Counted from the whole stretch's first letter, positions 3,289 to 46,385 are shown. The stretch is 59,626 nucleotides of DNA, filler included, from Sphacelaria rigidula (GCA_964200075.2; 7 parts of 7 records of this genome joined end to end with filler, not necessarily neighbours in it), one strand, 5' to 3'. Notes: generated by a model from the letters alone, not told the origin. Program-made: numbers and translations.

Positions 3289-3399
3289 GGGAGAAGAAAA
3301 AAAAAAAAAAAAGGAGGAAAAAAAAAAAAAAGAAAAAAAAAAAAAAACTAAAAAAAAAAGAGTTNNNNNNNGCAAAAACAACAAAAAAAAAAAAAAAAA

Positions 3400-4973: not shown

Positions 4974-5083
4974 ACGCTAACCCTAACCGTAACCCCGACC
5001 CAAGGCGTAAGAGACCCTCGGGCGAGGTGGGTGTATGGATTCCCCTAGGCAAAGGGTGCGTTGGCAGACTTGATATCGACGCC
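4974..5083. repeat. Dispersed repeat starting with telomere-like (TAACCC) units; related copy at 56259-56370, partial match at ~8396-8415
   Basis: ctaaccctaaccgtaaccccgacccaaggc...gagaccctcgggc...gcaaag.gtgcgttg.caga...tcgacgcc is shared with 56259-56370. Confidence 0.65.
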
Positions 5084-5540
5084 GCAGGCGCCGATTTCGA
5101 CAAAACACGTTCTGGACGAGCTGGGTACACTGCTCACCTGTCCCAAACCATAAATTTTCTCAGAACTTTCTCAGGTCTAACATCAAGTAGTCATGTTGTC
5201 AACCATACATATACGACCAAAGCTTTTGATCGACTGCTCCGAAGTGCTGTCTGCGTCACAGTCCGTATTTTTCGGACTTTTGCAAAAATGACACTTTGGA
5301 GGAAAAAAAAAAGAAAACTCGCTTTGTTCTCGGAGAAGTCTGAACGCAGAGTCCTGAAAGTCCGAAAAATTCGGATATGTCCGAAAACACAGTGTCGATA
5401 ACAGTGGGCCTAACTTTCAAACACCGACATCAAACTTCCAATACGAAGAATAATACATTTTTAATACATAGTCAGCATCGAACCTGAAGAAGCTATACGC
5501 GAATCTTCCAAGGAATGAGGAGTTGTACCTGTGACTATTT

Positions 5541-5777
5541 GGTCGACGAGGGAAAGGGACTGCTGAATCCCTCTCGCGATAAAAAATAAAGTCAAGCACC
5601 GCAGAAGGAAAGTGGAGAATTAAAACAAATAAATAAGAACAAAAAAAAGTGTTGGCCTCCCTCCTGTGTGACCCCGGCTGGTGCGCCCACATGTACCGAA
5701 AGGTGTAGAACGGCGTCCAGAATAGATGGGGACGACAGCACACACACAACACACACATACACACACACACACACACC
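5541..5777 (+). mobile_element. 5'-truncated tRNA-derived SINE with (CA)n tail
   Basis: Homologous to the body and tail of the full copy at 28453-28817 (ggtcgacgagggaaag...ggcgtccagaatagatggg...acacac). Confidence 0.85.
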
Positions 5778-6109
5778 TTTGCGGCAGTCAGGGAACCATC
5801 TCTGTCGCCCCCTTCTCTGAAGAACGACTCCCACCTCTGAATCTCCGAAACCTCGTGGGTCATCGACCGCACGCTCTGTGGGGGTGGGACAGCCAAGACG
5901 GAGGAGTATGACGACGCGATCATGAGTAGATGGACAAGCGAAGTCGCGAAAGCGCAGCTGGAAGATTGATCGTCACTGCATGGAGAATATAGTAGTCCAA
6001 ATATCCAAAAACGCGTTGAAGAGCAGAAAATCAGACCCCCCGCAAAAAAACAAATGTTGGGCAGAGGTTCCCACCACTATTCGGCCCTCTGAAGTGTACG
6101 TCCCCACTA

Positions 6110-6468
6110 CAGTGCGATCCAAATCACCATCTGAAACCAAATAATATCAAGCAATTGCACTGCACGTGAGATCATTGAACTTGCTTTGAATGAATGAGAA
6201 TCCTATTTTATTTCGCAGCTATGATCAGAGTGCGTTCAAACTGCTCTGATTCTTGATTGTTCATCCGAAAATATGTCAAAAGTTTCAAGAGTGCGTCATA
6301 CTTTTTTCCGAATAAAGCAAAAAAAAAAAACATTCGAATATACACGGCAGAATTCCAAGGTTGCGAAAAAGTTATCTCTGCCAGGATCCCACAGCACAAA
6401 TTAGAGATGATAAATAGAAAATTATGTTTCAAGCCTGAAAAAAAGGAACAGGGGAGCAAATTGCACTG
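6110..6468. mobile_element. Possible Tc1/mariner-type MITE (TA|CAGTGC...GCACTG|TA)
   Basis: ~9-bp imperfect TIR with TA on both sides; the TIR match is short. Confidence 0.35.
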
Positions 6469-7259: not shown

Positions 7260-7381
7260 AAGAGAGGGTGTACTCATGATCATGCAAGAGGCAGGAGCGG
7301 GGGAGAAAAAAAGCCAGAACAAACGAAGTAAAAGCCGGACAAGAAAAACACCGATAACCCCGCCCGTTCGTTCCAACTCAC

Positions 7382-7843
7382 CTGGTCAGCCGTGCCCATA
7401 TGCTTGAGCACCCTAGGCCTCTCACGAGCCTGCCATTGCCCTCCTGCCCTCGCGTACGTCTCGCCGCACCGCCTGTACATGTGCACCACAGCAGACAGCT
7501 CCCGCCATGTCCTGAGACACGTCCAGGCCGGTCCCACAGCGCCAGCACTACCACCAGCGTTCCCAAACTCACAAACATCAGCCTTGGGCATGATGGATGG
7601 AACGGGGACTGAAGATCCGCGGTGCAGAGGAGGGGGAGGGGATATGTCATCTACTTCCCCGGATCCTGCAGGCGGGGCGGTCTTGCTGCCTTCTGATTTG
7701 CTCTTGATGGATTGGAGACGCGGACCCGCGATGTTGTTGTTGCTGTTGCTGTTGGGCGAGGTTCCTCTGACGCTGACAATGAAGGCCAGTTGGCCCTGCC
7801 GTGTTTCGCGGTTCAGGAATTCTACCCACGCTGGTACACCCAC
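7382..7843 (-). CDS. Internal exon (154 codons, phase 0-0) of a protein of unknown function
   Basis: Acceptor gtccttccttcag|GTG and donor CAG|gtgagt; 462 nt, open in frame with ORF 7280-7981 (VGVPAWVEFLNRE...LRTWRELSAVVHMYRRC...ADQ). Confidence 0.75.
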
Positions 7844-8433
7844 CTGAAGGAAGGACACGTGGCCTTTTTGACGGGAGGGGGGGCGGCGGGGGGTACCAGA
7901 AAAAACGGTGATATGGACGGTGGAGCACGGCAAAAACAGATCAAGTGTCAGTCTCGTCCAAGGCTGGCTATTTACTTCCAAGCAGGGTGTATGCAGGAGA
8001 TCGTGGCAATCATCAGCTAAAGTCAGTTCTGGAGCGGGAAAGTCGGATTCTCAGATTAGAAAACAAAAAAAGCATACACACAGAAGCACACACACCACAC
8101 ATACACAGTTATGGGTGCGTCTGACCCCCCAAACTGGGCAAAAAAAGTGTCACCGACCAAAATCACGAAAAGACACGAACATATCGACTTTTGGGGCTTA
8201 TTCAGGCTCGTCGGGTAAAATATGCCCAACGTCATCGGAAGAGAATGACATGGATCCAAAATTCATATAGAGAACCCTACCGTTACTTCCGTTGTTGTTC
8301 CACATATGCAGGATGCCACTGCGTAGCTTTTCGACCATGCTCACGATACGCTGGAATGCCAGGAGGCTAGTTGGGTTGATCCAACCCAACGCACACCGAG
8401 AACCCTCGGGCAAGGGCGGTACATACATTCTTT

Positions 8434-8533
8434 NNNNNNNNNNNNNNNNNNNNNNNNNNNNNNNNNNNNNNNNNNNNTTAATTAATTAANNNNNNNNNNN
8501 NNNNNNNNNNNNNNNNNNNNNNNNNNNNNNNNN
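8434..8533. other. Artificial 100-nt contig spacer (N44-TTAATTAATTAA-N44); also at 16967-17066, 25499-25598, 34031-34130, 42563-42662, 51095-51194
   Basis: Identical linker with stops in all six frames; the intervening contigs are 8433, 8433, 8432, 8432, 8432, 8432 and 8432 bp. Confidence 0.98.
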
Positions 8534-9847
8534 ATGACCGCCAAAATGACTGGGACCTACATCTCTCGCACATCATGTTGTCCTACAACAACTCGGTTAA
8601 TGCCGCCACAGGCCTTTCTCCGAACGAACTCCATTTTGGACGCTACCCTCGGCTGCCTATCACCGTGTTCGAGCGACACACGTTCGACGGTCACCAAGGA
8701 TTGGATCAGGATCAGATATCCTACAACGAGCTCGCACATACACGACAACGCAAAGCGTTCACCCTCGTGCGCGAACAACACGTTATCAATGCCTCGCGCC
8801 TGGAGAGATCTAACACTGCTCTCTACAACCTCATGCACAAACACCCTAACTGGAAAGTTGGTGATTGGGTTTGGATCTACAACAGTTTGTCGATCACCCG
8901 CCAAGGCACCAGCAACAAACGAAACAATTTTGAAGACAAAACTGTCCCTCAATTGGACAGGACCATTCAAGATCCTGACAGTCGGACCATCGCCATCATC
9001 ACCGGATGGAAAACCCGTTGGTGACAAACTGCTCTATCTCGACTTGCCTCACGACTTCCAGGGCAAAGACACCAAGCCCCGCGTCTCCGTGCACATATGC
9101 AAACCCTGCACGAACCCGCATGATACAAGCGACATGCCCAAGTACCTGCCGGCCGGACTCACGCAGTATGTTCTCAACAGCTACTCGACCAAGTCCCCGC
9201 CCTACCACGTTACAGCCGACGACGTGACGGAACAGCCCCTTCGGTTGGCTGTGTCCTACATTTCCGGCCACCAAATAACCCGTGGTCAAGGAGGCAAGAT
9301 CGCTGTCATGTGTAAGACACACTGGCACGGTCTTCGGAGAGCGTCTTGGGAACCCGAATCCGACCTGCAATTGCACCGCCGTGCAATCCTCCTTTACTGG
9401 ACGCAATCCCAACATCAGCATCTTGCTCACAACAAGAAATATCGCAACATGCGCCGTGGCGCAGCAGCCCGCGAACTTCACCGCAACCAGGGACTACGCT
9501 TTGTCGCCGATGGTTACGAACTTGTACCCTCCAAGACTTGTAAGACGAAGTTCTTTGCAAACCAGCGACTCCTGCCCAAGGGCAGCTACCTTTGGTTCAA
9601 AGGCAGCGACAACCTTTGGTGGTTGGGTCAGACCCACTCCGCTAACCTGGTGTCGGCCGACACATATATCGTGCGCTTCATCGATGACCCTGGACCCATA
9701 CAGCTCAAGCTTCGGCCAGCACTTTACACCACCAGCCCATCTGCACCCCGCGGATCCTGGTGTCTCCAGCGCCTCAAGTCCAAAGGACTTCGCCGCGGTC
9801 TCCAGCGCAACATCGACCACACCCACGACGTCCACGCCCCGCTTTGA
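8534..9847 (+). mobile_element. pol: 3' part of a Ty3/Gypsy pol: integrase C-terminus, GPF motif, chromodomain and an extra C-terminal domain; frameshift near 8930
   Basis: WDLHL..IMLSYNNSVNAATGLSPNELHFGRYPRLP (integrase core end), KVGDWVW, LSLNWTGPFKI (GPY/F motif), ISGHQ...THWHGLRRASWEPESDL (chromo-like). Confidence 0.9.
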
Positions 9848-15339: not shown

Positions 15340-15790
15340 TACGGGCTGGGCCAGCTCAAAATCGGCTGAAAGTTGTCCACACCACAGCTTTCCCAGTTTC
15401 CCGAATGAACCCGATTTAAGCATATGAATGTGAACTGCAGACCCACCTGATGACAAAGGACTGCGTCGCTGTTCGATTGGCGTCGTATTGCTGATGACGT
15501 CGTTGTACTGCATAGAGTACGGGGTGTGCCTGATATCGTTGGGAGATAGCGTGTCGGAGGGCGTTTCGTTTTTACTACTCTCATGCTGTACCTAACCCTC
15601 AACCCTTATCCTGGCAGGGGGTGGTGTCAAACGTATCGACAATACCGTGAAACACTTTGTCGTAGCACTACGAGCTGGGCCAGCTTCAAAGCTGCAAAAG
15701 TTTCTCACACCATAGCTTTCCCAGTTTCCCGAATGAACCCGATGTAAGCATATCACTGTGGGGTGTAGACCAACCTGGCAACACACGGTA
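15340..15790. repeat. Two diverged ~110-bp copies (15340-15455 and 15670-15785) with a telomere-like ctaaccctcaaccct between them
   Basis: gctgggccagct...agctttcccagtttcccgaatgaacccgat.taagcatat occurs twice. Confidence 0.75.
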
Positions 15791-15849
15791 CCGCCGCTAA
15801 ATGAGAAGAAGAAAAAAATGTACTGCATAATGTATGACCTTAACGGCGG

Positions 15850-15970: not shown

Positions 15971-17237
15971 CAACGACTCTTGAGCTGAAATTTCACGAAG
16001 ACCTTCTGCACCCAAGAAAATGATCCATCACGTGAGCAGCTGCAAATTCTCATTTTTCCTGGACTCCCGACATTATCTTGTTTTTGCTGAATCTTTAAAT
16101 ACACATAACTCCCTTTTTTCTTTTCTTTTTTCTCTCTTCGCTGCTCACGGGATGTTCTTCCTGTCGATCATAAAAATGTTGCTGTCAAAATTTCAGCGTC
16201 CAACTCCTAATATCACGCCGTGCGTCACCTGAGCGAGAAAATCACCCACTCTTGGCTGGCCCAGCTCGTAAAGCTTCGCTGCCGCGCCCCGGTGGTGTGA
16301 ATTAAAATGGTCCGACTGTCACTGAAAGGGTGGAGAAATCGTGTGTTCGACTCCTGATGTGTCGGGGTCTTCTTTCGAAATATCCGATTTCTGCCGTCGT
16401 GAGTACGTGAGTAAACGAAGAGTTCTTGGCTGAGTTTGTGTGACGAGAGTTGATGCTGTGGGGGGGTGTTGATCATGATCTAATCAGCGAGCTCAAATGT
16501 AAGGCGTGTACCGAGGAGAGATGGGTTGATCCCTGGAGACTAGTAAACCACGGTCTCGTCCCGAGGAAGGGGAGGGGTTCAAACCCCCTCGACGTCGACT
16601 ATGAATTCTTCGACCTGGTACCTACACACAATGTGCTCCTGCGTTATACGAGCACTTGTTTTTTCCCGGTGCACCCTTTTCGAGAATCCAAAAATGGTCA
16701 AGGACATCTGTAGCTCTAGCATTTTTTCATTGAGTCGAGATGGTGGCTACATGTGACGATGATTTCATCCGTGAGCGTATTCGTAAGCGATTGAGAGTTT
16801 TTGTTGCTGTTGTTGCATGGATTCGAGATGATAATCGATGATTGACTTCACTTGACATTATAAATACATGAAATTTCATCTCAAAGCGTTCCTCCCTCCA
16901 TCAAGGAAAAAAAAAAAAAATCTCAAAGCGTATTCGTATCCCCAAAGTTTTTTTTTTATTTTTATGNNNNNNNNNNNNNNNNNNNNNNNNNNNNNNNNNN
17001 NNNNNNNNNNTTAATTAATTAANNNNNNNNNNNNNNNNNNNNNNNNNNNNNNNNNNNNNNNNNNNNTGAAAGTGAATGCACACCGTTTTTTTCTTTTTTT
17101 TTGTGGCGCATAGTTGATATACCCTTCGAAATCACGTCAGGCCCACCCAGCTTTTTTTCCTTCTCATTCTGAACATAACTCCCGCAATATTGAACATGCT
17201 CCAAAGGCGACACTCGTTCGATCCCCTCCGTCAACTT

Positions 17238-17580
17238 TGTTCATATAAGACACAGTCGGACAGTGAGTGTGACTTATCCTACCCGGACGGTGTGTGTGTG
17301 TAGGTTGTAGCTTCTCACTCGGTGAAAGGGTACGGAGAGTGCGGAGCCGTGACGTGGACTTGAACAGGATGGACTTTGCAAGCCGGTTTGGGTCGAGGTA
17401 CAGAACTGACAGAGCGGGGGAGGCACCCACGGGGATACCTCCCGAGACGGGAGAATGTCGATCCCAGACTGGGGATCGGAGGGTGACAGTCCCAGGGTGA
17501 CAGACCCGGGAAGACGGTTCGGATTGACTGGCCCAGGTTTATTAGTAAGCGGGTCGGGTTATACAGAGGTCATAATAACA
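17238..17580 (-). mobile_element. LTR type 2 (343 bp, TGTT...AACA) preceded by a PPT at 17581-17592
   Basis: Minus strand G-run+ta|TGTTATTATG ... ATATGAACA; partial inverted copy at 25336-25498. Confidence 0.8.
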
Positions 17581-18359
17581 TACCCCCCCAGCTACAGCGG
17601 TGTTAGCGCGCGACTCCGCTCAAGCTAAAGACTGGTATTTGAACCTCTAGGGACAAGACCTGACGAGTTTACTAATATCCGATCCACTAATGTGGCATGA
17701 GAGGTTCCACGAGACGAAGTGGATATATGCGCCCATTAGACAACACTTGCTAAGACTTGTACAAGACAATACCGTGACTTTCTTTTTTCTGAATATATCC
17801 TCAACGGAGGAGCAAATACATGTACATTTTATTTTAGTCAATTTGACGACAAACCTGCAAGGTTGTTTCTTGACATATGTATTTGCAGACATACGCGTAT
17901 GTGGGGCGGAACGATTTCTTGCCAAGACTTGGTCACTTGTGACGGACGTGTGACTTGTGAAAAAACATGTGACTGAAGCATGGTGAAAAACGTGATGGAA
18001 CCATGATGGGTTTACTTTGGCCAAAAACTTGAATACTTTCACCATTACTTGAACATGGTCATGTTTGAACTGACTTTGACAAGACGTGGCCGTGAAAAAC
18101 ATTGTTGAGACGAGACAAGACAAGAGATGACTGATGTGGGTAAAACATTATGTATTCTGGGGTCTTAATCCAACAGCGTTCATATTGTTTGCCCAGTGAT
18201 CAATGCATCTGTGGAACGTACGATGATGAATATCGAAGAAAATGTTGGTGTTTTCTGGTACAACCACCTGGAGTCCTCATCCAACAGGTGTGAAATACCC
18301 ACCATTTCGATTATTCGAAAGTCCAAGATCGAGAATCAGATTTCAACTTGTTGTTTCAT

Positions 18360-18819
18360 GGGGTAAGAGTGAGTAAAAAGTGGTGAAGGGGTGAACGTGC
18401 ACGCAACGTTGCAACCAACTGGGGTCTTGATCCATTAGTGGTGCGAGCTTGGTGGTTGTTCCCCGTATTTGGAGAAGTAGAAGAGCCCGAGAAGATAAAC
18501 ATATATTAACGTTTTCACCGAACCCACCACATCGTGGCGAAGCGTAGCGGCCTTGACGTCCGGGGAACCAAAATTCGGGATTCACCAGCGAAATAAATAC
18601 GGAAACGACGTACCACTCGACTCTGAGACGGCCATATTTGTACTCAACGAGGACGCAAGACAAGAGTGAATGAGTATATCCAAATGCTTACGGTACTTGA
18701 TTGAGTGTACGAGGTACATGAACAAACAAACAAAAACAAAAACACGAAAAAAAAATCATCAGTAGCGAGACTAAAGGAGAAGAAATGAATGAATACAACA
18801 AGAAGTGGTACTCCATGTG
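18360..18819. repeat. Left arm of a long inverted repeat pairing with 24899-25335; begins with PBS-like TGGAGTACCAC (18815-18805, minus)
   Basis: Reverse-complement match with scattered substitutions and indels; ORFs 18343-18663(-) and 25049-25450(+) translate near-identically. Confidence 0.95.
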
Positions 18820-18930
18820 ACTCACGTAAATAGTGTGACAAGAGATAAAAATACAACGCTTCTTGAAAAAAAAATATCTCGAGGACGTGGACTTGGTAGC
18901 GAGATTGATCGACTACCTATAGCTGCTGCA
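18816..18930 (-). mobile_element. Short LTR type 1 (~115 bp, TG...CA) between a PPT (18931-18942) and the PBS-like motif
   Basis: Minus strand ggggggagtga|TGCAGC ... GAGTCACA|TGGAGTACCAC. Confidence 0.65.
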
Positions 18931-19276
18931 TCACTCCCCCCCGGCCAAACCCCCATGAAAGCGACACATGACTGTCGGCGCACGACGGTGGACGTGGGCA
19001 GTCGGCCCGACAAAACAGACGGTATACCAGAAGACATATGTACACCGAAGTCCTAACTGAGGGTGCGGTATATCACCCTAGTTGATACACACAAGACAAA
19101 GTAAACCATGTTCGACGTGGTTCGCAACGGCGAAGACCGGACGAGGTGTATGAAACACCAGTGGCAACGACATATGCCTCTATAACTAGTATATACAAAC
19201 GGCACAAAAAGACGGGACGACAACTTACCAAAAACATACAGAAGACTGACGACAACTGTTGGCACTCACGGCGCTG

Positions 19277-22200
19277 CTACTTCTTTACTGTACGGGGAGC
19301 ATCAAATGCAGATGGATCCGCTGACAAAGTGACTGCCCGGTACGACTCTATCATTTCCCGGCACTGCGGAACTTCTTTATGATGATTCCAAACCCCCATC
19401 GCTTGTGGATGACCCTTCAACAAAAGGTGGTACTGTTAATTTGTCGACGACGCGCTGCCAACTCCGCGCTTGTGTCCGTCGATGCCTTCGACCGTGTAGG
19501 GACCCAGCTTGACCGCATTGAGGGAACCGTCGAGATCGGGGACTGGCAACTTTGTACGTAAAAACAAGTCATCGAGATCTGAGAGATCGGGGACGGACGA
19601 ATCGAGGGGCGGGCGGTATTTTTCAACCTTCCGAGATGAACAGTGACCTGAGACATCTCCCCATCTTTACTGACGCGGTAAAGGACGGGAGACAACTGAG
19701 CACGGGCAGTGTCAGGACCACGCCACGGGCTGACGAGCTTAGGGTTATGTCCATCAGTCGTAGTGTACGGGCGGTGGAGCAGAACTTGCTCTCCCATTTT
19801 GAACTGGGGAAACGACAACTTAGCATTGACGGATGCTTGTGAATGAGCTCGCTCTTTAAGATTACTTCGGGCTAACTCATACGCGAGTTGTAACCGCTCG
19901 ACGGTCTGCCTAGTATACTCTAACGAAGACTGTGGAGCCGATGTCGACGGGACACCGAGAATGACATCTACCGGCAACACTGCAGGGCGGCCAAACATGA
20001 AAAAGTGCGGCGTTTCTTGCAGTGTGGCAGAGTAGGCAGTCTTATGCGCGAGTTGTACAACGAGCAGAAAATCAGCCCAATTGCGACACGCAATATCACT
20101 GTACATTGCGAGCATGTTGTGTACGGTACTATGGACACGCTCGAGAACAGAGTTGCCTTGGGGACGGTAGGCAGAGGTACGCGTTTTCTTGTACCCAAAG
20201 ACAGTTTGGAGTTCATTGACAAGTTGGTTTTCGAACTCCCTTCCGAGATCAGAATGTAAGGTCTCAGGTGGACTGAAGACAGCGATAACACGTATGACAA
20301 GCTGACGGCCGACAGTGGTCGCGAGTTTGTCAGGCACTGCTTTCAGAACGACGAACTGTGTTAATAGTCGATAACGGACATGATGTAACGGTTACCTCGA
20401 GAAAGAGTTTTATACTCGACCAAGTCTACTGCTACACACTGAAATACGCGGGCGACCTCCCGATGTCCCATGGGGAGCTGCGGCGTGCGGCGAAGCGTTT
20501 TACGATGTTGACATGACTGACAATGATCAATATGACGTCGAACATCGGCATGAATAGAAGACCACCTATAGCGGTCTCTAATCCGGTCAAAAGTGGCTTT
20601 GAAGGCCAAGTGACCACCTGACGCAGGCAAATAATGACATGCGTTGATTACTAACGACCGAAATATGGTGGGAACTACCAACTGATCGCGAAAATCCGAT
20701 TGTTTACGCAAATTACCCGGTAGGTATGACCTGAAAAGCCGTCCTTCCAGGAGGAAGAAATGGCTCATTGTGTACTTGTTTCTTTACGTGGGAGTGGACT
20801 AGACTCTGGGTTACGCAGGTATGCAAAATATCAACTGTACTCTGCTTCCTGTTGGGAGGTGAACTGGTCGGGATCAACAAGGGGGAATACTGACACAGCG
20901 CCCGTGAATAGGTCACGATCACTTTCAACGGGGGCAATATCATTCAGGTTGTGAGCTGAAACCTCTAACTCACGAGGTGACGGTGAATGGTACGGTTGAT
21001 CGTCGGGGACATTCCGACAAATTACCGCTAGGCGAGGTTTTGTGACAACATCCTCACCTTTTGTATCGCCAAACAAACGTGACAACGCATCGGGTACAAC
21101 ATTTAATTTACCCGGGACATGCTTCACTGTAAAATCAAAACTTTGAATCGACCAACGGGTCAGCATGTTACTCGTGTCTTGCATCTGATGAAGATGACAC
21201 AGCGCTTGATGATCCGTGTAGACCGTAAAATGTCTGCCCCATAAATACGGGCGAGAATGCATGAGCGTGGAGACTAAACCTCAACATTCTTTGTTTGTAG
21301 GGCTACAGTGACGCTGAGACCTGGAAAAGCGTCTACTAAAATACGCGATGATACTGACATCATCGAGGGACTGAGAGTTTGAGGTGGCGTTCCCGAGGAA
21401 ACCACCCATAGCAACCTCTGAGGCGTCTGTGTGTACAACAAACTTTTTTTTTGAAGTCCGGAAATTTGAAGACTGATTCAGCGGTCAACACACGCTCGAT
21501 GTGGTCAAAAGCTGCAGACTGTTCAGTTCCTCAAGCTTTCAAAAAGTTATGTTTCTTTTCACAACTTTTTTGTGTGAGAGCGACAAGGGGACCAGTGATT
21601 TCGGCGTAGTCTTTGATAAAACGCCTGACGAAGCTGACCATACCTAGAACTGACCGAAGTTGTTTGATTGACTTCGCGGGTTCGAGGTCGCAGATGGCTT
21701 TGATGCGGTCTTTACCGATGGAGACACCTTCGGGAGTAATGACGTGACCGAGATATGTAACTTCCTTGGGACCGAACTGAATTTTCGACGGTTTGAGGAT
21801 CAGACCTGCTGCTTGTAATGCAGAAAGCATGAGACGAAGGGACTTGAGGTGTTCGTCAATTGTGTCACTGATACCCAAAATATCATCAGTGTAACACAGA
21901 ATACCAGATTCTGGACCCAGATGTCCTAAGACAATGGACATCATACGTTGATACAACCAAGGGGCAGACATGACACCAAACGGCATGTGTAAAAACACAT
22001 ATTTACCGGACGGGGTAGTGAAAGCTGTCTTGTCTACATCCTCAGCTGCGACCGGAAGTTGCCAGAAAGCCGACATGACGTCCGCGACCGTGATGAAACG
22101 AGCACCGCCGACGGCGTCCAAACACGTACCCATGTTGGGCAAGGGCCAAGATTTGCGGATTAGATACTTGTTGAGGGTGTTACGATAATCCACGCAAAAT

Positions 22201-23450
22201 ATTGGTGAGCCATCCTTTTTTGCGACTATACATGACGGGGAACCCCAAGCGCTAGGGCGCTCTTCAATGATTCTCCATTCGAGCATATCTTCGACACATT
22301 TCTCGATGGATTCGGCTGTACGGGGGTTGGAACGATATGGTAGTTTGTCGACAAGTACAGTATTTTCCGGGACAGGAAAAGTGGCTTCCGCCACAGTGCA
22401 AGTACCAAGCTCTAGCATAGACAGTGAAAACACTGGCCGAAATTCAGCACATAAATCACGGACACAATTCTGCTGTTCTACTGTGAAGGTAGAGTCATTG
22501 AAAGCAGAAGACAGGGGTTCTCGGAGGTCATCCTTAGCTTTTTGCAACTCGACGGAAGTGGAGGGACTTTTGGCTACTGCATTCATGTGCGGATGGGCGG
22601 GATCGACTACAGTGACAGTGTACAGGGTACCAAGGACCAAGCCTATGGGCAAGGACACGGCTTCAGACGATGCCTTTGCAACTTGCACTACGACAGAACC
22701 ATCTATCACTGACCAGTGGGACAGGGTACGTGCAACTATCAACGACTCGAAGACGACGGGACGGTCTACTTTAGACATTTCATCTGTGGTGACTAAGCGA
22801 GGTTCAACAACGACAGTACAATCACGCAGGGGACGACATTCCGTAAATGCTAGGAGTAGGGCTTCGTGAAGAGGTTTGACAGTAACACGCTGTAGTAAAG
22901 TGACAAATTGTTGTGGAACATCATGTACTGCTGCTACAGTGGACTGTGTTTTACTTCAAGACGGGACTGACTGTGGACTACGATGTACTACGGGGATAGT
23001 TTGACTACCCTTTGAAAAAGACAACGTTTGACTAGACCAGTCGATGGTGGCACCGAATTTTGACATGCAGTTGTGGTCGAGCAGTAAGGTATCAGGACCT
23101 AACGAAGGAACGACAAGTGCTTCAACGCGACGTGTGACTTGACCAAGGGTTAATGAAAAAGCCACGAACCCAAGGACATTTATCGGCGAACCGTTTGCTG
23201 CCCGGAGCGAGACGGCTGCTGGGGGTACGGGGGACACTGGCAATTTCTGCAGCATGGGGTGTGATTTGAACCATGCAGCGGAACAAACTGAACAGTCAGT
23301 TGCAGTGACGACCGTTACATCTTTAACCTCAACTGGACCAACCAATCCTGAGATGCGAACGCGTCTCGAGGAAAAAGCAAGTGACAACGGTCCATGCTGT
23401 GAACACAGCGAGGAAGTGTACCAAAGTGTGTGCGTATCATCTTCACTGAT
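19277..23450 (-). mobile_element. pol: Ty3/Gypsy pol (PR-RT-RNase H-INT-chromodomain), disrupted by frameshifts and stops
   Basis: Degenerate protease (VTVVTATDCSV...LLLD..CM); RT FCVDYR, MPFGV, CYTDDIL; RNase H VHTDAS, FTVYTDHQAL; integrase HHCC (H..GGH, CQSCQ), VAVDL, HSDLGREF, SVLERVH, PWRGP; chromo-like YTVEGIDGHKR..QYHLLLKGH..W; stop at 19277-19279. Confidence 0.97.
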
Positions 23451-23814
23451 TGGATCGGGCGCGGACGGCGACCTGTTGACGTTGTCATGCACGGGTGTGA
23501 CAGGCGGGGCTACAGTACCAGATTCTGACTTTTTCCGAGGTGGACGAGACGGAACATCTGGTGTTACTGTAGCGACAGATGATACATGAGACGAGTCAGG
23601 TGTGGCAGGGTGACGTGGCTTTTCGGCAAGATTGATTGAAGTACCAAACCCACTGTCGGGACAACTACACCATGACACGAGTCTCTCAAACACACACTGA
23701 CGGGATACTGTCGAAAGCCGAGCTTTACGCCGCCGGACGTCCCTACTAGCTACTACTTTGCTACTAGGGGGGGGTACTCCATACCAGTGATGACGGCCTC
23801 CTGGCTGGGCACCT

Positions 23815-24879
23815 TCAGCCGCTATCCTGCTCTTCGTCCGAAGATGGAGGAGTCGGGGCCGTAGGTGCTGGTGCCGGCGTCCCCGCTGGTTTGGTCGCCC
23901 TCGCCTTCGGCTTCCCAGTTGATTTGTTTGCCTTCGCCTTGCCTGCTTTACTTTTCTTCTGCGGGGAGGCCGTTTGAGTAGCGGCCTTTTTCCGAGCGCG
24001 TATCTCATCAATGAGAATTTTGTACGCACGCGGATCCTCGATAGCGAGGCGGTCTACGCGCTCATCATAGTGATGAGTGTGGGGGCGGGTGCACCTACGG
24101 TAGCCGCATAACCTAGGAGGGGCGGGAGATTCCGGTGACGGCGATTTTCTTTCACGGTCCGATTTGTTTTTTCGTTTGCCACGTGGTGTGACGGGGGATG
24201 AAAACGTAACGGATGAAACGGTGTGCGTAGACGTGTTACCGGCTGCGATATTACGAGCACGATCAACAGCCTCCTGCAGAGTAACCGCTGGTTTTTGTGT
24301 TGTAGATGTGTGGCGAACGGCGGGTTTTAGCCCGTTCGACCACATACAGACGGTGAAAGCTGTCCAAGCATCATCGGTGCCAGGTGCCCGCTTGACGGCG
24401 GACTCGTGTCGGCGGAGGAGTTGACGGTACCGGGTTACGTAACCCTGTACAGATTCCGTTGGTTACCAAGTAAAGGCTGCAATTACACGAGCGTGTTCTT
24501 GCACACCATTTGCTGACATGAGCAAATCTCAAAATGCGGACGCCAACTGCTCCCATGTGCGTGGGGGTTCGAATGAACCTTTGCAACGCACATCATCCGG
24601 CGTGATACGGTCTGATTCCCAATCAATCTGGCCTTCCATTAACTGATTATACACCAACAAGCTACCCCCGTCGAGGATAAGAAAGAGGTGTTCGTAGGCC
24701 AGGACATCGTCGTAAGATAGGTCGTTGGGGCGCACAGATTTAGCTTTGAAGCCAACTTTGATACGGTAACTACTCAGAACCTCGGGGAGATCTGTACTAG
24801 TTGTAGCATCAGTGATGCGCGGGCAGTGTTTGAGGTCAGCTGGTGTTATATGACACACTTTCTGGGAATGGTTGGACAT
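23815..24879 (-). mobile_element. gag: gag of the same Gypsy element, with in-frame stops
   Basis: PRTWEQLASAF, ESVQGYVTRY, WSNGLKP..TLQEAVDRARNI and a zinc-knuckle-like CGYRRC...H, lying upstream of the protease. Confidence 0.8.
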
Positions 24880-24898
24880 CACTGTAGACCCCCTCTTC

Positions 24899-25498
24899 CA
24901 CATGGAGTACCACCTTGTTGTATTCATTTATTTTTTCTCCTTTAGTCTCGCTACTGATGATTTTTTTTTTGTGTTTTTGTTTTTTTTGTTTTGTTCATGT
25001 ACCTCGTACACTCAAGTACAGTAAGCATTTGGGTATACTCATTCATTCTTGTCTTGTGTCCTCGTTGAGTACAAATATGGTCGTCTCAGAGTCGAGTGGC
25101 TCGTCGTTTCCGTATTTATTTCGCTGGTGAAACCCGAATTTTGGTTCCTCGGATGTCAAGGCCGGTACGCTTCGCCACGATGTGGTGGGTTCAGTGAAAA
25201 CGTTAATATATGTTTATCTTCTCGAAACACGGGGAACAACCACGAAGCTCGCACCACTGATGGATTAAGACCCCAGTTGGTTGCAACGTTGCGTGCACGT
25301 CCACCCCTTCACCACTTTTTACTCACTCTTACCCCAGGTTGCCTCCCCCGCTCTGTGAGTTCTGTACCTCAACTCAAACAGGCTTGCAAAGTCCATCCTG
25401 CTCAAGTCCACGTCACGGCTCCGCACTCTCCGTACCCTTTCACCGAGTGAGAAGCTACAACCTACACACACACCCACCGTCCGTGTAGGATAAGTCAC
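24899..25498 (+). mobile_element. Inverted copy of the CACA-PBS-internal-LTR2 module with a ~0.9-kb internal deletion; truncated by the contig end
   Basis: 24899-25335 is the reverse complement of 18360-18819; 25336-25498 is the reverse complement of ~17270-17432; the two parts join at CCCC microhomology. Confidence 0.9.
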
Positions 25499-25736
25499 NN
25501 NNNNNNNNNNNNNNNNNNNNNNNNNNNNNNNNNNNNNNNNNNTTAATTAATTAANNNNNNNNNNNNNNNNNNNNNNNNNNNNNNNNNNNNNNNNNNNNCT
25601 TGCCTTAGTCATTTGACCATTGACCACGCATCCCTTTCGAGACGGAGCAATCTGGGGGGGGGGAAACAGGGGGGGAAATGACAGTTTTTCATAATAACTT
25701 GAATGTTCGTGGACTATTAAAAATGCAAGTTCAGCC

Positions 25737-26262
25737 AAAACTGCGGCAACGGGAAAGCGCAAAGATGCCTTGAAACGGTCTCAACGAGTAGAGTGAGTCA
25801 TTCCAAGGTATCAGCGTCCACCTTGCCCTCTTTTCGGGAGTAAAATGACAGAGAAGGAAGGGCCAAAAAGGCACTTTTCAACACTTTGTTTTCTTACACA
25901 TGAGGCCGCTCCTCAAAGTAAAAAACAAGACAGTCCTGTAAAAACCCTTTTTTGGTGCTTCTTCGTCGTTTTACGCCCTATGAGAGAGCTATGCGGAATT
26001 GACACCTTGAAATGACTTGCTGCACTCGTTTAGGCGGTTTCAGGACATCTTCGCGTTTTCCGGTGGCCGCAGTTTCTATTTTGACCAAACAAGCATTTTT
26101 ATCCAGAGACGGTAAAGCCCAGAGAGAAATGGCAGTTTTTCTAGATTTGACCTTTGTTGGTCGTTCTTGGACACAAATTCAAGTTTGGCGAAAATGAAAA
26201 CTGCGGCCACCGGACAGCGCGAAGATATCTGAGAACGATCTCAACGAGTAGAGCAAGTTATT
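25737..26262. repeat. Three ~72-bp units in alternating orientation (25737-25809 +, 26004-26075 -, 26197-26262 +)
   Basis: aaaactgcggc.ac.gg..agcgc.aagat...tctcaacgagtagag and its reverse complement. Confidence 0.8.
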
Positions 26263-28452
26263 ATTGTGTGTCAAACTCCGCCTGGCTCTCTTTCAGGACG
26301 TGAAACGACGAAGTACCCAAACAACATTTTTACAGGACTTTCTTTGTTCGCTATAAGGAGCGGCCTGAGAGCCGCTTCTTACAGTCGGAAAATGGTGACT
26401 GGACATTTTTCGGTGGTCAATTTTCTGACTTTTATTAAAACGCGATCGTACAGGACCACTTTTCATGAAAAACTCTCTGGAAACGGCAAGTTTTTTTCAG
26501 ACAGCGAGATTTTTCCAGAATTCTGTTGGGAAAAAATGGTCAGGTTTGAGTGAGACCAAACTGTTGGAAAGGGTGTGCTCCATCACACACTCCTCGCATA
26601 CCGCACCCGCAGTAGACGCGATGGATATTGACACAATGGATATAACATCTTCATGACGTGAAGTGGAGGCCGCGTACACAACGGGCATTGTCTGTAGCTG
26701 CTTGACATACGCCGCCCCGAGACACCTCCGTGTGGTACTCAGAAATATGTTGAAATACCCATCGCGCAACTTCTGAACACGGTACGACTATCGACGGCGC
26801 TGGCGATGGCGAAGAAGGCATTGGTATGCAGTGTGTTGTTGCGTGCCGCCTGCTGCCGTGTGGATGTGGACGTGAGTGATTGGCTGATGCGCGTGGGGTG
26901 TACCCTGGATCCTGCCTTCAAAATATGAAGGATGGCAACTACCCCTGCACGCAGGCTAGGTGATAGCCTTGGGTGTAAAACCCCCCAGTTTTTAGATAAA
27001 ACATAAGGCGGCGTGTTACAAACAGGATTCTCTGGAAAAAGTCACTGAAAAACGTCCTCCGCGCGCTACATGTTTTCAGTGACATTTTTCAGAGGAGTCT
27101 AGCCCACTTCTCTGATTAGCTTCGCTCCGAGGTTCCGAGAATGACCTCTGAACAACAACAGCTGGACAAAAAATGCGGTGTCTGCAGGTATATTCACTAC
27201 AAATGTCTCAAAAGTGGCAAATACGCCCCCCAAAAAGCAACAGCAAGAAACGGCCGTATCCTTCCCGTTATTTTCTTTGTTATTTTCCCTGTTCTGTACA
27301 TCTCCCATTTGGTTCAGTGTACTCCGCTTGTTCTATCCCCCCCTTTTGTTTTCCTCGTATGCTGTCCCTTTGTCGACTTTCCTTCAGCGAGTGTTTCCTT
27401 TCTGTTTTGTCTCGGATACGTCTATCATGTGGATAATAAATGATGACCACAGCTGGATCTCTGGAGGATCAGTTAATGTTTCAATGTGCGACATTCAATC
27501 AATCAATCATGCTAAATAGTCCTTGCTGGTCGCTTCCGTTTTTTGCGCCAATGCCCCTGAAGTAAAAAGGCCCTGTTGCACTATTCGCGTACCTTTTGAC
27601 GCGAGACCGCCTTTCGAAACATCATCATCGACCGAAACATTGAAGCCGATGACCCCGATGCTCCGACGGAGCAGCTACGCTCGATACTGCACTTTGAACA
27701 CTAGCCACAGAACACATTCAATCCTCCATGCTCCACACCCCCCCGGGTCATGCAGATTTCTGTAGCGAATGCATTTGTTTCTCAAATATATCCAGTCCAA
27801 TCCTCGATTTCGAGCCGATCCGTGGGGTCGGGAGCCCAAGCGTTTTCGATATCCAAACTAAGTCAAGCCATTCTCGTTCAATTTACCGCTGTGATTGCCG
27901 TGTACCCCATGTGACTAGTGGCGACTACATGTAACATAGAGTCCATATGAAAGCCTGATATCCAAAACCCATGCGCCCGTTAACAGCTGTAGTACCTGTA
28001 CCGTCCGCCGCGCACTCAATGAACAACGCACAGTGTAATCTGAAGGTGGTCCGTTCTGGTGCAGTACTATCATAAGAGTAGATTTTCAGAGTTGAGGGTG
28101 GAGCTTTTCCTTGAGGATGATAACCCGTCAAATCAAATCTTCGTATCCACACGAATTCTCAAAAAATGGCTGCATTCCTTCGCTTACTGGCAGCTGGTGA
28201 CAACGGCCACATGCTATACAATTTTGATGCCGATGACCGAAATTTTGGGGTCCTAGGCGAAAAAACAGTTCCGGGGAACGCAGGTGATTTTAGTTTTCGA
28301 AACCACTGCATGCCATACAAATTTGGATCCCGATGGCCGAAATTTTGAGGTCCTAGGTGAAAAACGATAGGATCCCAAATTTTTCGGTTACAGGGATCCA
28401 ATTTGTGTGGCATGTAGTAATTGTCAACAGCTATCAGTCGATGAAGGAATGC

Positions 28453-33100: not shown

Positions 33101-34130
33101 TGTATTCATGCTGTGGTTACTGTACTGTACTTCTGCACTACCGTCGTGCAGTGCATGCACTTCACTATCAATATGGAAATTTCCCTCTACCCGCATCGTA
33201 GCCTCGCAACAATGCACAGCGTCTGAGCGGCAAGCGGTGATCCAAATGCTACTATAGTAGTCGTGCGCCAGTTACGGTACGTCACAGTAACCTTGAATTA
33301 AGTGGGCCCAAGGGTCGGTCAAAATTTCGGGACACGCAGGCCCCGAGATCGATAATTCGAGTTTTTGAGGAGGGCGGAGGGGAACATCCAGCTTGCTTTC
33401 TCCTAGATTATTGCCGAGGCGTTGGCGGATGCGATCAGCTACCGTGTACAGAGATCCTTGGCATGGAGACCGCCGAGATGACGGACACACCGCCCCTCCG
33501 AGCTCATCACCTACCATGATTACATGTATGGGATAATGTTCCGTATCGTGTGCCGCCTAGACTATTCACCACTAGTCCGGGCAAATTTGGCGAAGCGTGA
33601 GATCATGTTTCTACTTTGGCCACATGCTGTCGCTCACGTGCGCTCGTGTATCGTACATAGATGTGTTGGAGCGTTGCCGGCATTTGAGGTCATCGGGACA
33701 GGGCGGGCAATAAGGAGCAGAAGCAAATAAACGAGCCTCGCAAAGCCCGCCAGACTTGACGGTTTTTGTCAGTGTTTGTACGTGTCAATATATTTCAACA
33801 ATGTCAACGAAAACAAATATTGCTTTTTTTCGATAAATTGTCCCCCGGGGGGGGACACTTTTTACGATAGCCCCCCCCCCCCTCCCCCCAAAGTTCAGCA
33901 GGGCGAGACACCCAGGAGGCAGTGTATAAGCCGTGACTGTCTCTAGAAGAGTCAATGCCAGATAATAAAGCAACTCATTGTAAGCTGTCATCCAAATGCA
34001 AGATAATCAGTAGGCCTCGGGCCGAACAATNNNNNNNNNNNNNNNNNNNNNNNNNNNNNNNNNNNNNNNNNNNNTTAATTAATTAANNNNNNNNNNNNNN
34101 NNNNNNNNNNNNNNNNNNNNNNNNNNNNNN

Positions 34131-37200: not shown

Positions 37201-37611
37201 CTCATCACTACACCTGGAAGGGCACTGGTTTGCCATCCAACGTCAAGGATCAAACAAAATCGACAGTGAATACATTTCGCCAGATGGGGGTGTTAGTTAC
37301 CATAATACGCGATATGGAAACTGGCGACCATGATTCTTTTGGCGGAGAGAAACGCAACACGCATTGGGGGGCCGGGTATCTTCGCACATGGTGATAGCCT
37401 ACGATTGCATCAATCACGTCTTTATATTACACTCAGAAGCCGGAAAGCACAGCGCGAAACATCATAGGCCCCCGCATAGTGCAGTGAGAAACGTACGATT
37501 GCAGAAAAGATCAACATCTTCCGCTTGCTGTGTTTTGCGCCAGTTTTACGTGTAGTTAGGGTGTCGTGTCTCGTGCCTTTCGTGCACTTCTTGCTTCCCA
37601 ATGGTCTCCAG

Positions 37612-38175
37612 ATCACGAAAGAGCATGTTGCCGCAATTCCACACACCACGGAAGAGGTAGACCAGCACCGCTCTGTATATCTACCTCTCTTCCCGCTATC
37701 GATCTTCATGGGAGAGCGCGACGAGTGGGTGGCAGTGGTGAGCATGCCATACGATGAACGCGTCGACATGTACCACCAGCTGGAAGACCCCGAGTTCATC
37801 TTCATCCTCGAGACCATGCTTGCGAGGGCGAGAAGCGAACGCCCAGACAAAGCCGTCGTCCAGCAACTGAAAAAAGATCTCGCTGGTTATTTCAGCCTGG
37901 ATGTATGCACCGACGACGATCTGAGCTTAGTGGGGAAACTGAGGATACCCAACGCGATTGTATCACCACAGCAGTGGACAAGAATGGAGGAAGCGTTCAG
38001 TGCGATCGTGGCGAGGGCAGGCAGCGCGGTGATCAAATTTCCCGCGAAGATAGACTTCGGGGTCGGGGGGATATCTCAGTGTCGGATCGCCCATGGGACC
38101 AAGTGGGAGCGGGATTCGACGTTTTTGGGGGATGTCAACGTTGACGGGACGCTGGAAGTGCGGAAGAGAAGCTGA
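37612..38175 (+). CDS. Probable terminal exon (187 aa) of an unknown protein; left arm of the foldback
   Basis: Pyrimidine tract plus ctccag|ATC acceptor; frame open to TGA; protein similarity to the inverted copy. Confidence 0.55.
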   Translation: MTKEHVAAIPHTTEEVDQHRSVYLPLFPLSIFMGERDEWVAVVSMPYDERVDMYHQLEDPEFIFILETMLARARSERPDKAVVQQLKKDLAGYFSLDVCTDDDLSLVGKLRIPNAIVSPQQWTRMEEAFSAIVARAGSAVIKFPAKIDFGVGGISQCRIAHGTKWERDSTFLGDVNVDGTLEVRKRS

Positions 38176-42200: not shown

Positions 42201-42672
42201 AAGGACATCGCAATTCGTGAGTAAATGCCTACACAATTATCCGAAATTAAATTCCTATGCAACTAGCCAAACCGTAGAAAACATCCCTCGTGTTTGGCGA
42301 GGTGAAACAGCGATCTTATCCCCCGGAAGGGAGAAGCGAGCGGTTGGAAGGGAAACTCTTTTCTTTTCACGCTTTATCTATGCCTTCGCGTGTTCCGACG
42401 CATCACCATCTGTCTGTAGCACGCTAAAACGGTAGATACGACCCATGTGATCGTGTTTTTGCCGGGGGGGGGGGGGGGGGGGGGGGGGCAAAATAATTTT
42501 TTAATTGGTTGGGTGGTAGAAGGTGTTGAGTAGGGGGGGGGGAAAAAAAAGAAATATTATTTNNNNNNNNNNNNNNNNNNNNNNNNNNNNNNNNNNNNNN
42601 NNNNNNTTAATTAATTAANNNNNNNNNNNNNNNNNNNNNNNNNNNNNNNNNNNNNNNNNNNNCGCGGGGGGG

Positions 42673-45163: not shown

Positions 45164-45415
45164 ACAACTACGTCGGGGTGTTTTGGGACATCAAGTTCCA
45201 GACAGCTCCGGAAGCTGTACAGCCGCGTTGTTGTTATCCGTTGTTGTGGCTGTTCGTTGTTTGTTTGCTGCGATTATCGTTGTTGTCCTTTGTTTTTGTC
45301 ACTGTACTGCTGCTACCCTCTGTGGCTGTTCGTTGTTTGTTTGCTGCGGTTCGTTGTTGTCCTTTGTTTTTGTTATTGTGCTGCTGCGCACCGTCTGTCG
45401 CTCTTGTTATCGGCC

Positions 45416-45447
<32 letters not shown>

Positions 45448-46339: not shown

Positions 46340-46385
<46 letters not shown>

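What the first reader, a model, noticed from the sequence alone, without database searches (positions are those of the whole stretch)
17238..25498. Gypsy gag-pol core flanked by inverted PBS-internal-LTR modules instead of direct LTRs
Seen: the 6.1-kb core 18816-24902 begins TGTG and ends CACA. Both ends join directly to the same PBS-like TGGAGTACCAC, pointing outward in opposite directions. Each continues through a homologous ~450-bp internal segment into LTR2 (complete at left; deleted internally and truncated at right). The arms are diverged, which argues against an assembly fold-back. No direct 5' LTR precedes gag, and the junction lies ~20 nt before a likely gag ATG (24879). Knowledge: DDE-integrase LTR elements have direct LTRs; inverted ends typify tyrosine-recombinase DIRS elements. 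Inference: either a composite retroelement propagated with inverted termini, PBS-junction-specific joining to a non-autonomous partner, or a one-off inversion/autointegration product. The arms could also yield dsRNA.
Basis: partly seen in the sequence, partly recalled or inferred. Interest (0 to 1): 0.82.

Follow-up and report, generated by a model that had tools for sequence, protein, structure and literature searches.

The report
Broken gypsy retrotransposon with inverted tail fragment
This is one decayed gypsy-type retrotransposon that keeps an ordinary 3' end and has, in place of its 5' end, a backwards fragment of a second copy's tail, so it looks like a one-off rearrangement or mis-assembly and not a new kind of mobile element.

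Summary
The inverted arms exist as described: 24899-25336 is the reverse complement of 18819-18359 (90%) and 25337-25498 of 17428-17269 (94%). The anatomy built on them does not hold.

- **Setting:** the window is a chain of ~8.4-kb contigs joined by N/TTAATTAATTAA linkers. The finding fills one contig, 17067-25498.
- **"TGTG...CACA" core ends:** these are the last 4 nt of the inverted homology. Position 18816 is therefore not a junction. There is one breakpoint, at 24898-24902.
- **The real LTR:** it is a 343-bp TG...CA repeat, 17238-17580. Contigs from public runs leave it at both edges into different sequence. It points the same way as gag-pol and a G7 polypurine tract precedes it. The left arm is the element's normal 3' end.
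- **"PBS":** TGGAGTACCAC lies 1.2 kb from that LTR and no evidence supports it as a primer site.
- **The right arm** is a deleted 3' fragment of a second, diverged copy, pointing the other way.
- **Enzymes:** pol is RT-RNaseH-DDE integrase with broken frames, and no tyrosine recombinase was found.

What one search printed did not test read support for the one real junction, so a genomic one-off and an assembly chimera both remain open. Interest is low.

The parts
16967..17066 (.). Artificial linker (44 N + TTAATTAATTAA + 44 N) between concatenated contigs
17067..17237 (.). Flank outside the element. It has no homology to the rest of the contig. The flank-LTR boundary is also seen in runs X2 (0 differences), X1 (7 differences) and X5 (6 differences).
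   Evidence: records 9, 1, 25
17238..17580 (-). 3' LTR of copy A ('R', 343 nt). In element orientation it runs TGTTAT...GAACA, with 8 of 12 terminal inverted matches and an AATAAA inside. It is a very abundant dispersed repeat. The outer end is uncertain by about 6 nt (17238-17244).
   Evidence: (loose ends before 17243/17244 and behind 17580 with agreement 0.40-0.56; depth step)
17581..17592 (-). Polypurine tract (G7) directly upstream of the 3' LTR, in element orientation
   Evidence: read from the sequence
17593..19416 (-).
   Evidence: no Pfam family; records 12 and 27 run through 18815/18816
19417..20783 (-). Integrase: H2C2 zinc domain (20361-20783) and DDE catalytic core (19417-20391), split by a frameshift
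   Evidence: PF17921, 8.5e-16; rve 0.051, below cut-off; PFV integrase 1.8e-10; Ty3 Gag-Pol 5e-5
20831..21280 (-). RNase H fragment, in a different frame from RT and IN
   Evidence: (PF17917, 3.5e-10)
21531..22955 (-). Reverse transcriptase
   Evidence: (PF00078, 3.3e-25)
22956..24879 (-). gag and the protease-side region in several broken frames. The gag Met is at 24879.
24880..24898 (-). Remnant of the leader upstream of gag. The rest of the leader, the PBS and the 5' LTR are absent.
24899..24902 (.). The only true breakpoint. CACA is the last 4 nt of the inverted homology and may be microhomology.
24899..25336 (+). Copy B fragment: 3' untranslated segment homologous to 18819-18359, 90% identical, in opposite orientation to copy A
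25337..25498 (+). Copy B LTR part, homologous to 17428-17269 (94%). It is joined to the previous part across a 930-nt deletion whose breakpoints share CA(C/T)GGGG. The contig end cuts it 26-32 nt before the LTR end.
25499..25598 (.). Artificial linker. What follows is an unrelated contig.

Best explanation
The contig holds one old, defective Ty3/gypsy retrotransposon, copy A, on the minus strand.

**Normal 3' end (shown).** It runs pol, then a 1.8-kb non-coding tail, then a G7 polypurine tract, then a 343-bp 3' LTR (17238-17580), then flank.

**Abnormal 5' end (shown).** About 20 nt upstream of the gag ATG, at 24898-24902, the leader, PBS and 5' LTR are missing. In their place lies a fragment of the 3' tail plus LTR of a second family member, copy B. 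Copy B is 6-10% diverged, carries a 930-nt internal deletion, and points the opposite way.

There is therefore one abnormal junction, not two symmetric ones. The 'inverted modules' are the copy's own 3' end and a backwards duplicate of it.

**Origin (inferred).** The most likely cause is a DNA-level rearrangement in a repeat-rich region. Either a deletion or inversion joined two head-to-head copies, or an inverted duplication formed by end-joining or template switching at little or no homology. The product is immobile because it has no 5' LTR or PBS and its frames are broken. If transcribed through, the ~600-nt arms could pair as a hairpin. That last point is inference only.
For: 1. Inverted homology runs through ...CCATGTG and stops at 18819/24899, so TGTG/CACA are part of the repeat.
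2. Continuity across 18815/18816 is seen in X2 record 12 (18757-18986, 0 differences) and X5 record 27 (18701-18976, 16 differences, 2 gaps).
3. LTR edges. Contigs depart into heterogeneous sequence before 17243 (X2 20, X4 4, X5 15, X1 20 contigs) and before 17244 (X2 14, X5 17, X1 18). They also depart behind 17580 (X2 11, X1 9). Agreement is 0.40-0.56. X2 summed depth is 4640-6356 over 17067-17630 against 502 in the next bin.
4. LTR orientation. A G7 tract abuts the TG start in minus orientation only. The LTR is TG...CA with 8/12 terminal inverted matches.
5. In other copies the opposite LTR end is followed at 0-1 nt by TGG-initiated strings: 4 of the 12 strings shown table 5c (2 more not shown), two of them reverse complements of each other. 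One of them continues into pol at 20402.
6. Copy B keeps the same tail-then-LTR order as copy A. Its 930-nt gap has CA(C/T)GGGG at both breakpoints.
7. Pol is RT, RNase H, H2C2 and DDE integrase with at least 4 frame breaks.
8. A nested insertion is excluded: flank 17067-17237 has no homology to the element.
9. There are no Ns inside the contig.
10. The arm inner segments have lower summed depth than the core: X2 78-116 against mostly 320-525 between 19041 and 22988. This speaks against two such arms per family member. The tool warns that depth is a weak measure.
Against: - None of the 32 pieces, 15 joints or 24 loose ends that one search printed lies at 24890-24915. These are out of 4171, 40 and 489 rows, so read support for the only real junction is untested.
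- No full-length family member could be fetched. Normal 5' LTR-PBS-leader-gag continuity in relatives is therefore inferred from short contig strings only.
- X5 record 27 may be the same locus in a diverged strain and not a second copy.
- The LTR is about 10 times more abundant than the internal region, so it may be shared with other families.
- Its fine structure is unclear. One TGG-string sits in what looks like a ~70-nt periodic arrangement.
- The depth figures are summed contig depths, which the tool says cannot rank parts.
Confidence: 0.52

Rival explanations
1. Assembly chimera. The assembler joined the 5'-proximal part of one family member to the reverse-oriented tail of another, so the junction 24898-24902 does not exist in the organism.
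For: - The finding is a whole 8.4-kb unplaced contig in a chain of equal-length leftovers.
- It consists almost wholly of multi-copy repeat. Of the X2 contigs laid, 652 of 1376 are only 90-95% alike.
- The contig ends inside the highest-copy repeat.
- No printed row bridges the right junction.
- At many positions every X2 contig differs from the contig's base (table 3).
Against: - The two sides share at most 4 nt at the junction, far less than an assembler's overlap or k-mer.
- There is no N or gap at the junction.
- The geometry is not a mirror fold-back, and the arms differ by 6-10%.
- Logan contigs drop rare variants, so missing support there proves nothing.
Confidence: 0.22
2. Integrated aberrant cDNA. 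During reverse transcription the growing minus strand, having reached the leader, switched onto another minus-strand cDNA (its own 5' part or that of a co-packaged family member). It then copied the tail and LTR back out. This gives a molecule with an LTR U5 end at both termini, which integrase then inserted. It would be an LTR-element counterpart of the 5' inversions of LINE-1.
For: - One event explains both the truncation in the leader and the inverted tail-plus-LTR, which runs collinear towards the LTR end.
- Both outer ends would be ...CA 3' ends usable by a DDE integrase (established knowledge of integrase; inference here).
- The arm divergence is compatible with the age implied by the broken frames.
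Against: - There is no evidence for the predicted right terminus or a target-site duplication, because the contig ends at 25498.
- No second example was found.
- The 930-nt deletion must be added as a later event.
- One full-text search listed no description of such products for LTR elements.
Confidence: 0.12
3. This is a composite retroelement that propagates with inverted terminal PBS-internal-LTR modules, or PBS-specific joining to a non-autonomous partner.
For: - The arms are diverged, not identical.
- The region around the left 'junction' is present in more than one version in public runs (records 12 and 27).
Against: - The left 'junction' is not a boundary.
- The true LTR is 343 nt and oriented as a normal 3' LTR with a PPT.
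- The motif called PBS is 1.2 kb from it.
- LTR copies elsewhere are followed by other TGG strings (table 5c).
- The right arm lacks the PPT and the LTR's first 152 nt.
- The enzyme is a DDE integrase. No tyrosine recombinase was found in 18 of 18 ORFs of 100 aa or more.
- Arm inner segments have lower summed depth than the core (weak measure).
- Normal strand transfers cannot regenerate inverted LTRs (established knowledge).
Confidence: 0.04

Closest known systems
Ty3/gypsy (Metaviridae) LTR retrotransposons of brown algae and other stramenopiles
   Same: - RT-RNaseH-integrase order, H2C2 zinc domain and DDE core.
- TG...CA LTR with a PPT in front.
- The nearest named RT relatives are Ectocarpus proteins, 57-63% identical over part of the ORF.
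- Ectocarpus is reported to hold 32 Gypsy families with 4221 copies, of which 196 are intact (PMC12477816, passages read).
   Different: This copy has only its 3' LTR. The 5' LTR, PBS and most of the leader are replaced by an inverted tail fragment, and the frames are broken.
Truncated and internally deleted LTR-retrotransposon remnants made by illegitimate recombination
   Same: The 930-nt deletion in the right arm lies between short CA(C/T)GGGG repeats. The one abnormal junction has 4 nt or less of shared sequence.
   Different: The joined partner is inverted, so a simple deletion within one element cannot explain it. That such deletions are common in plant LTR elements is recalled, not read here.
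LINE-1 5' inversions (twin priming)
   Same: A retroelement copy that is normal at its 3' end and carries an inverted piece of element sequence at its 5' end.
   Different: In twin priming the inverted piece is the element's own next-upstream sequence. Here it duplicates the 3' tail and LTR. The mechanism also depends on target-primed reverse transcription, which LTR elements do not use. This comparison is recalled, not read here.
DIRS-1-type tyrosine-recombinase retrotransposons
   Same: Inverted terminal repeats around a gag-pol core. DIRS-1 has inverse LTRs and a tyrosine recombinase (PMC3950715 and PMC7192593, search listing and abstract starts only).
   Different: This element has a DDE integrase with an H2C2 domain and no tyrosine recombinase. 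Its arms are a 3' end and its inverted duplicate, not DIRS termini with an internal complementary region.

Membership tests
Ty3/gypsy LTR retrotransposon | pol domain order RT - RNase H - integrase | tested here: met
   PF00078 at 21531-22955, PF17917 at 20831-21280 and PF17921 at 20361-20783, all on the minus strand. The integrase core at 19417-20391 matches PFV integrase (1.8e-10) and Ty3 Gag-Pol (5e-5).
Ty3/gypsy LTR retrotransposon | Two direct long terminal repeats | tested here: not met
   No direct repeat flanks gag-pol. One LTR lies at 17238-17580, and the second LTR piece at 25337-25498 is inverted. This copy is a remnant, not a complete member.
Ty3/gypsy LTR retrotransposon | Polypurine tract abutting the 3' LTR | tested here: met
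   A G7 tract at 17581-17592 lies directly before the TG start of the LTR, in element orientation.
Ty3/gypsy LTR retrotransposon | tRNA primer-binding site next to the 5' LTR | tested here: inconclusive
   The 5' LTR is absent here. In other copies the LTR end is followed by TGG-initiated strings (table 5c). No host tRNA is available: 0 tRNA genes in the window and no genome is held.
Ty3/gypsy LTR retrotransposon | Target-site duplication | not testable with these tools
   The contig ends at 25498 inside the right arm.
DIRS (tyrosine-recombinase retrotransposons) | Tyrosine recombinase instead of DDE integrase | tested here: not met
   All 18 of 18 ORFs of 100 aa or more in the contig, plus 3 of 90-99 aa, were scanned. 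None matched a recombinase family. A DDE integrase is present.
DIRS (tyrosine-recombinase retrotransposons) | Inverted terminal repeats with an internal complementary region | tested here: not met
   The only internal repeat is the arm pair itself. No further inverted or direct match exists inside 18820-24898.
Autointegration product of an LTR element | An LTR terminus (...CA) joined to an internal target site | tested here: not met
   The junction 24898-24902 joins the leader to a point of the 3' tail 1.2 kb from the LTR.
Twin-priming-type 5' inversion | The inverted segment is the element's adjacent upstream sequence, not a duplicate of the 3' end | tested here: not met
   The inverted segment duplicates 18819-18359 and 17428-17269, which are also present in direct form.
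Fold-back (palindromic) assembly or read artefact | Near-identical arms that mirror each other at the turning point | tested here: not met
   The arms are 90-94% alike, with a 930-nt and a 17-nt gap. They are separated by 6.1 kb of unique sequence.

The most novel reading that the evidence does not exclude
The copy is an integrated snap-back or template-switched cDNA. Minus-strand synthesis jumped from the leader onto another minus-strand cDNA and copied the tail and LTR outward, so a DDE integrase inserted a molecule with a U5 end at both termini. This would be an LTR-retrotransposon analogue of LINE-1 5' inversions, and a one-step way to create hairpin loci that could feed RNA silencing of the family.
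Probability: 0.1. Interest if true: 0.55.

Novelty: already known. Interest (0 to 1): 0.15.

Why it matters
As it stands it matters little. It is a decayed, immobile retrotransposon remnant on an unplaced repeat contig of a brown-alga-like genome.

The check has three practical uses:
- It shows that inverted 'modules' around a gag-pol core can be an illusion. Here they come from one breakpoint plus the element's own 3' end.
- It shows that a deletion breakpoint in one arm can mimic an LTR boundary.
- It shows that windows made of concatenated contigs need their linkers mapped first.

Two results would raise its interest:
- If the junction proved real and bounded by a target-site duplication, it would document an aberrant reverse-transcription product integrated by a DDE integrase.
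- If the locus is transcribed, it could be a hairpin source of small RNAs against this family.

Tried and rejected
- **Whole genome:** none is held, so copies of the junction could not be counted.
- **Public runs:** five runs in two studies hold 26-47% of the contig's sampled words, and four were laid. This is no evidence for or against the junction.
- **Relatives in public contigs:**
  - gag protein against metagenome contigs: 267 pattern matches, 0 confirmed.
  - A 24-nt LTR pattern against metagenome contigs: 0 matches.
  - RT protein against viral contigs: 7 pattern matches, 0 confirmed.
  - The LTR pattern against viral contigs: 0 matches.
- **Other copies in the window:** none by blastn or tblastn.
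- **Earlier notes of this scan:** nothing for this genome, this sequence or look-alikes. One unrelated note came up by words.
- **Host tRNA match for either candidate PBS:** 0 tRNA genes in the window.
- **Pfam on the tail and arm ORFs:** no family passed. The only rows were chance-level, E 0.064 and 0.77, both below cut-off.
- **Integrase ORF against P0032:** uninformative, because that protein ends before the integrase core.
- **Rejected models:**
  - Nested insertion of A into B: the left flank is not element sequence.
  - Autointegration: no LTR terminus at the junction.
  - DIRS membership: DDE integrase present and no recombinase.
  - Mirror fold-back artefact: wrong geometry and diverged arms.
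- **Literature:** one full-text search for self-priming or hairpin cDNA products of LTR elements listed nothing relevant. Supplements of PMC12477816, which may hold family consensus sequences, were not seen.


Full report
**Setting.** The window is not one stretch of genome. It holds six identical linkers (44 N, TTAATTAATTAA, 44 N) that chain seven pieces of about 8432 nt. The finding fills one piece, 17067-25498, which has no N inside. Its 'truncated' right end at 25498 is a contig end, and what follows is unrelated. No whole genome is held for this window. No other piece of the window matches this contig, by blastn or by tblastn with its seven gag-pol ORFs.

**What is confirmed.** The inverted arms are real and far beyond chance.
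- 24899-25336 is the reverse complement of 18819-18359 (90.0% over 461 columns).
- 25337-25498 is the reverse complement of 17428-17269 (94.4% over 162).
- The right arm lacks 17429-18358, which is 930 nt.

Between the arms lies a Ty3/gypsy-type gag-pol on the minus strand:
- RT (PF00078, 3.3e-25), RNase H (3.5e-10) and the integrase H2C2 zinc domain (8.5e-16).
- An integrase catalytic core. Pfam rve is only 0.051 because a frameshift splits it. Against solved structures it gives PFV integrase 1.8e-10 and Ty3 Gag-Pol 5e-5.

The frames are broken at least four times. None of the 18 ORFs of 100 aa or more in the contig, nor three of 90-99 aa, matches a tyrosine recombinase.

The Met at 24879 is a credible gag start. 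Of 62 representatives with E up to 0.001, the closest (P0121, 81% identical) begins at the same Met. Several others align from their residue 5 or 6, and some distant ones carry N-terminal extensions.

The nearest named RT relatives are Ectocarpus proteins at 57-63% identity over part of the ORF. The best unnamed hit is 56%. The host is therefore probably a brown alga or a relative.

**What is not confirmed: the two symmetric junctions.** In the alignment of the left arm with the reverse complement of the right arm, identity continues through ...GTGGTACTCCATGTG and stops only after it. The 'core that begins TGTG and ends CACA' is therefore just the last four bases of the inverted repeat. Position 18816 has no special status in the left arm.
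- Logan contigs run straight through it: X2 record 12 (18757-18986, 0 differences) and X5 record 27 (18701-18976, 16 differences, 2 gaps).
- X5 record 27 is either a second copy or the same locus in a diverged strain.

There is one breakpoint, at 24898-24902.

**What is not confirmed: 'LTR2'.** I laid the contigs of four public runs from two studies on the stretch at 90% likeness or more.
- Contigs leave the reference into mutually unlike sequence before 17243 (X2 20, X4 4, X5 15, X1 20 contigs) and before 17244 (X2 14, X5 17, X1 18).
- They also leave behind 17580 (X2 11, X1 9). Agreement of the loose letters is 0.40-0.56.
- Summed depth in X2 is 4640 and 6356 in the two bins over 17067-17630, 502 in the next bin, and 2894 over 25245-25498.

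The tool warns that summed contig depth is no copy number, so I lean on the loose ends and use depth only as a hint.

The unit 17238-17580 (343 nt) reads, on the minus strand, TGTTAT...GAACA, with 8 of 12 terminal bases inverted-matching. A G7 tract lies directly before its TG start. On the plus strand there is neither a purine tract before it nor a TGG after it. Its orientation is therefore that of gag-pol.

In other copies the far end of the unit is followed at 0-1 nt by TGG-initiated strings. That is 4 of the 12 strings shown in table 5c, two of which are reverse complements of each other. One of these strings then continues at 20402 inside pol.

The two breakpoints share CA(C/T)GGGG, the usual mark of a slippage or illegitimate-recombination deletion (that this mark is typical is recalled knowledge).

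**What is not confirmed: the PBS.** TGGAGTACCAC lies 1.2 kb from the LTR, next to no LTR terminus. It differs from the TGG strings that follow the LTR elsewhere. It cannot be compared with host tRNAs, because the window has 0 tRNA genes.

**Resulting anatomy.**
- **Copy A (minus strand):** 19-nt leader remnant (24898-24880), gag from 24879, pol to 19417, non-coding tail 19416-17593, G7 tract 17592-17581, 3' LTR 17580-17238, flank 17237-17067.
- **Flank-LTR boundary:** it recurs in X2 (0 differences), X1 (7 differences, 1 gap) and X5 (6 differences, 1 gap) (records 9, 1, 25). This fits an old insertion shared among samples.
- **Copy B (plus strand):** it starts at 24899 with the homologue of tail position 18819. 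It runs to the homologue of 18359, jumps the deletion, and continues with the LTR from the homologue of 17428 to 17269, where the contig ends.

Copy B keeps the same tail-then-LTR order as copy A. A joint in X2 and X5 links 18335 to the B-like version at 25286. This indicates at least one further copy in which the region deleted in B is contiguous with a B-like tail.

**Mechanism.**

Shown:
- One non-homologous junction, with 4 nt or less shared, joins the leader of A to an internal point of an inverted, diverged tail.
- A is not inserted into B, since the flank left of A's LTR has no homology to the element.
- The junction involves no LTR terminus, which rules out autointegration.
- The geometry is not a mirror fold-back.

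Inferred:
- The default is a DNA-level rearrangement. Two head-to-head copies were joined by a deletion or inversion, or an inverted duplication formed by end-joining or replication template switching. This is the kind of mosaic that fills unplaced repeat contigs (confidence about 0.5).
- An assembly chimera stays at about 0.2. The contig is a repeat-only leftover and nothing one search printed bridges 24902/24903. However, only 32 of 4171 pieces, 15 of 40 joints and 24 of 489 loose ends were printed, and Logan contigs drop rare variants. This is no evidence either way.
- An integrated template-switched cDNA, with a U5 end at both termini, is the most interesting reading not excluded (about 0.1).
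The right arm lacks the PPT and the LTR's first 152 nt. The enzyme is a DDE integrase. Normal strand transfers cannot regenerate inverted LTRs. The arms' inner segments show lower summed depth than the core (X2 78-116 against mostly 320-525 between 19041 and 22988). Two arms per element would predict the opposite.

**Comparison with known systems.**
- This is a defective member of Ty3/gypsy. That superfamily is reported in Ectocarpus as 32 families with 4221 copies, of which 196 are intact, alongside DIRS/Ngaro and PAT-like elements (PMC12477816, passages read).
- It is not a DIRS element. Those combine inverse LTRs with a tyrosine recombinase (PMC3950715 and PMC7192593, listing and abstract starts only).
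- It resembles LINE-1 5' inversions only superficially (recalled).
- One full-text search for self-primed or hairpin cDNA products of LTR elements listed nothing relevant.

**Verdict.** The novelty class is 'already known' (a rearranged LTR-retrotransposon remnant). Interest is 0.15.

The decisive test is reads spanning 24870-24935 and extension beyond 25498. I could not run it here.

Noticed in passing
window 8434-8533, 16967-17066, 25499-25598, 34031-34130, 42563-42662, 51095-51194; also 3365-3371: Six artificial linkers (44 N + TTAATTAATTAA + 44 N) chain seven pieces of about 8432 nt, apparently leftover contigs sorted by length. A separate 7-N gap lies at 3365-3371. Any feature that crosses a linker in this window is an artefact.
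   Followed up: yes
window 19499-20615: Run X4 (only 98 million letters) holds one 1145-nt contig identical to this integrase stretch. Its depth is 122.7, far above X4's other bins, and 28 unlike letters precede 19499 (record 20). X4 also has a joint 24045->17592 at depth 87.6. This could be a transcript or an amplified, rearranged copy. The kind of run is unknown.
   Followed up: no
window 17238-17345 and 25420-25498 (outer part of the LTR): Some LTR variants in public runs replace about 36 nt near the outer end. They carry a TGG-initiated string followed again by LTR-like sequence, which looks like a ~70-nt periodic arrangement (table 5c). At least two different TGG strings follow the LTR in different contigs. 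The LTR's fine structure and true primer site are unresolved.
   Followed up: partly
window 18477-19040 and 24963-25244: The segment around the inner ends of the arms has much lower summed depth than both neighbours. In X2 it is 78-84, against 373 to the left and 323 to the right. In X1 it is 4.7 over 18759-19040. This suggests a subfamily-specific or fast-changing part of the 3' tail.
   Followed up: no
window 17067-17272: The flank-LTR boundary of this copy is present in three runs of two studies, with 0, 6 and 7 differences (records 9, 25, 1). The insertion seems old and shared among the sampled lineages.
   Followed up: partly
window 15340-15798 and 25737-26344: Neighbouring contigs hold their own repeats. 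One has direct repeats spaced 328-329 nt apart (D3, D4). The other has a cluster of direct and inverted repeats (D2, I6, I9, I10). None is related to the element.
   Followed up: no
window 7280-8050, 8534-9847, 37480-38175, 45088-45768, 46193-46876, 58096-59073: The six longest open frames outside the element (226-437 aa) match no Pfam family at E up to 0.001.
   Followed up: partly
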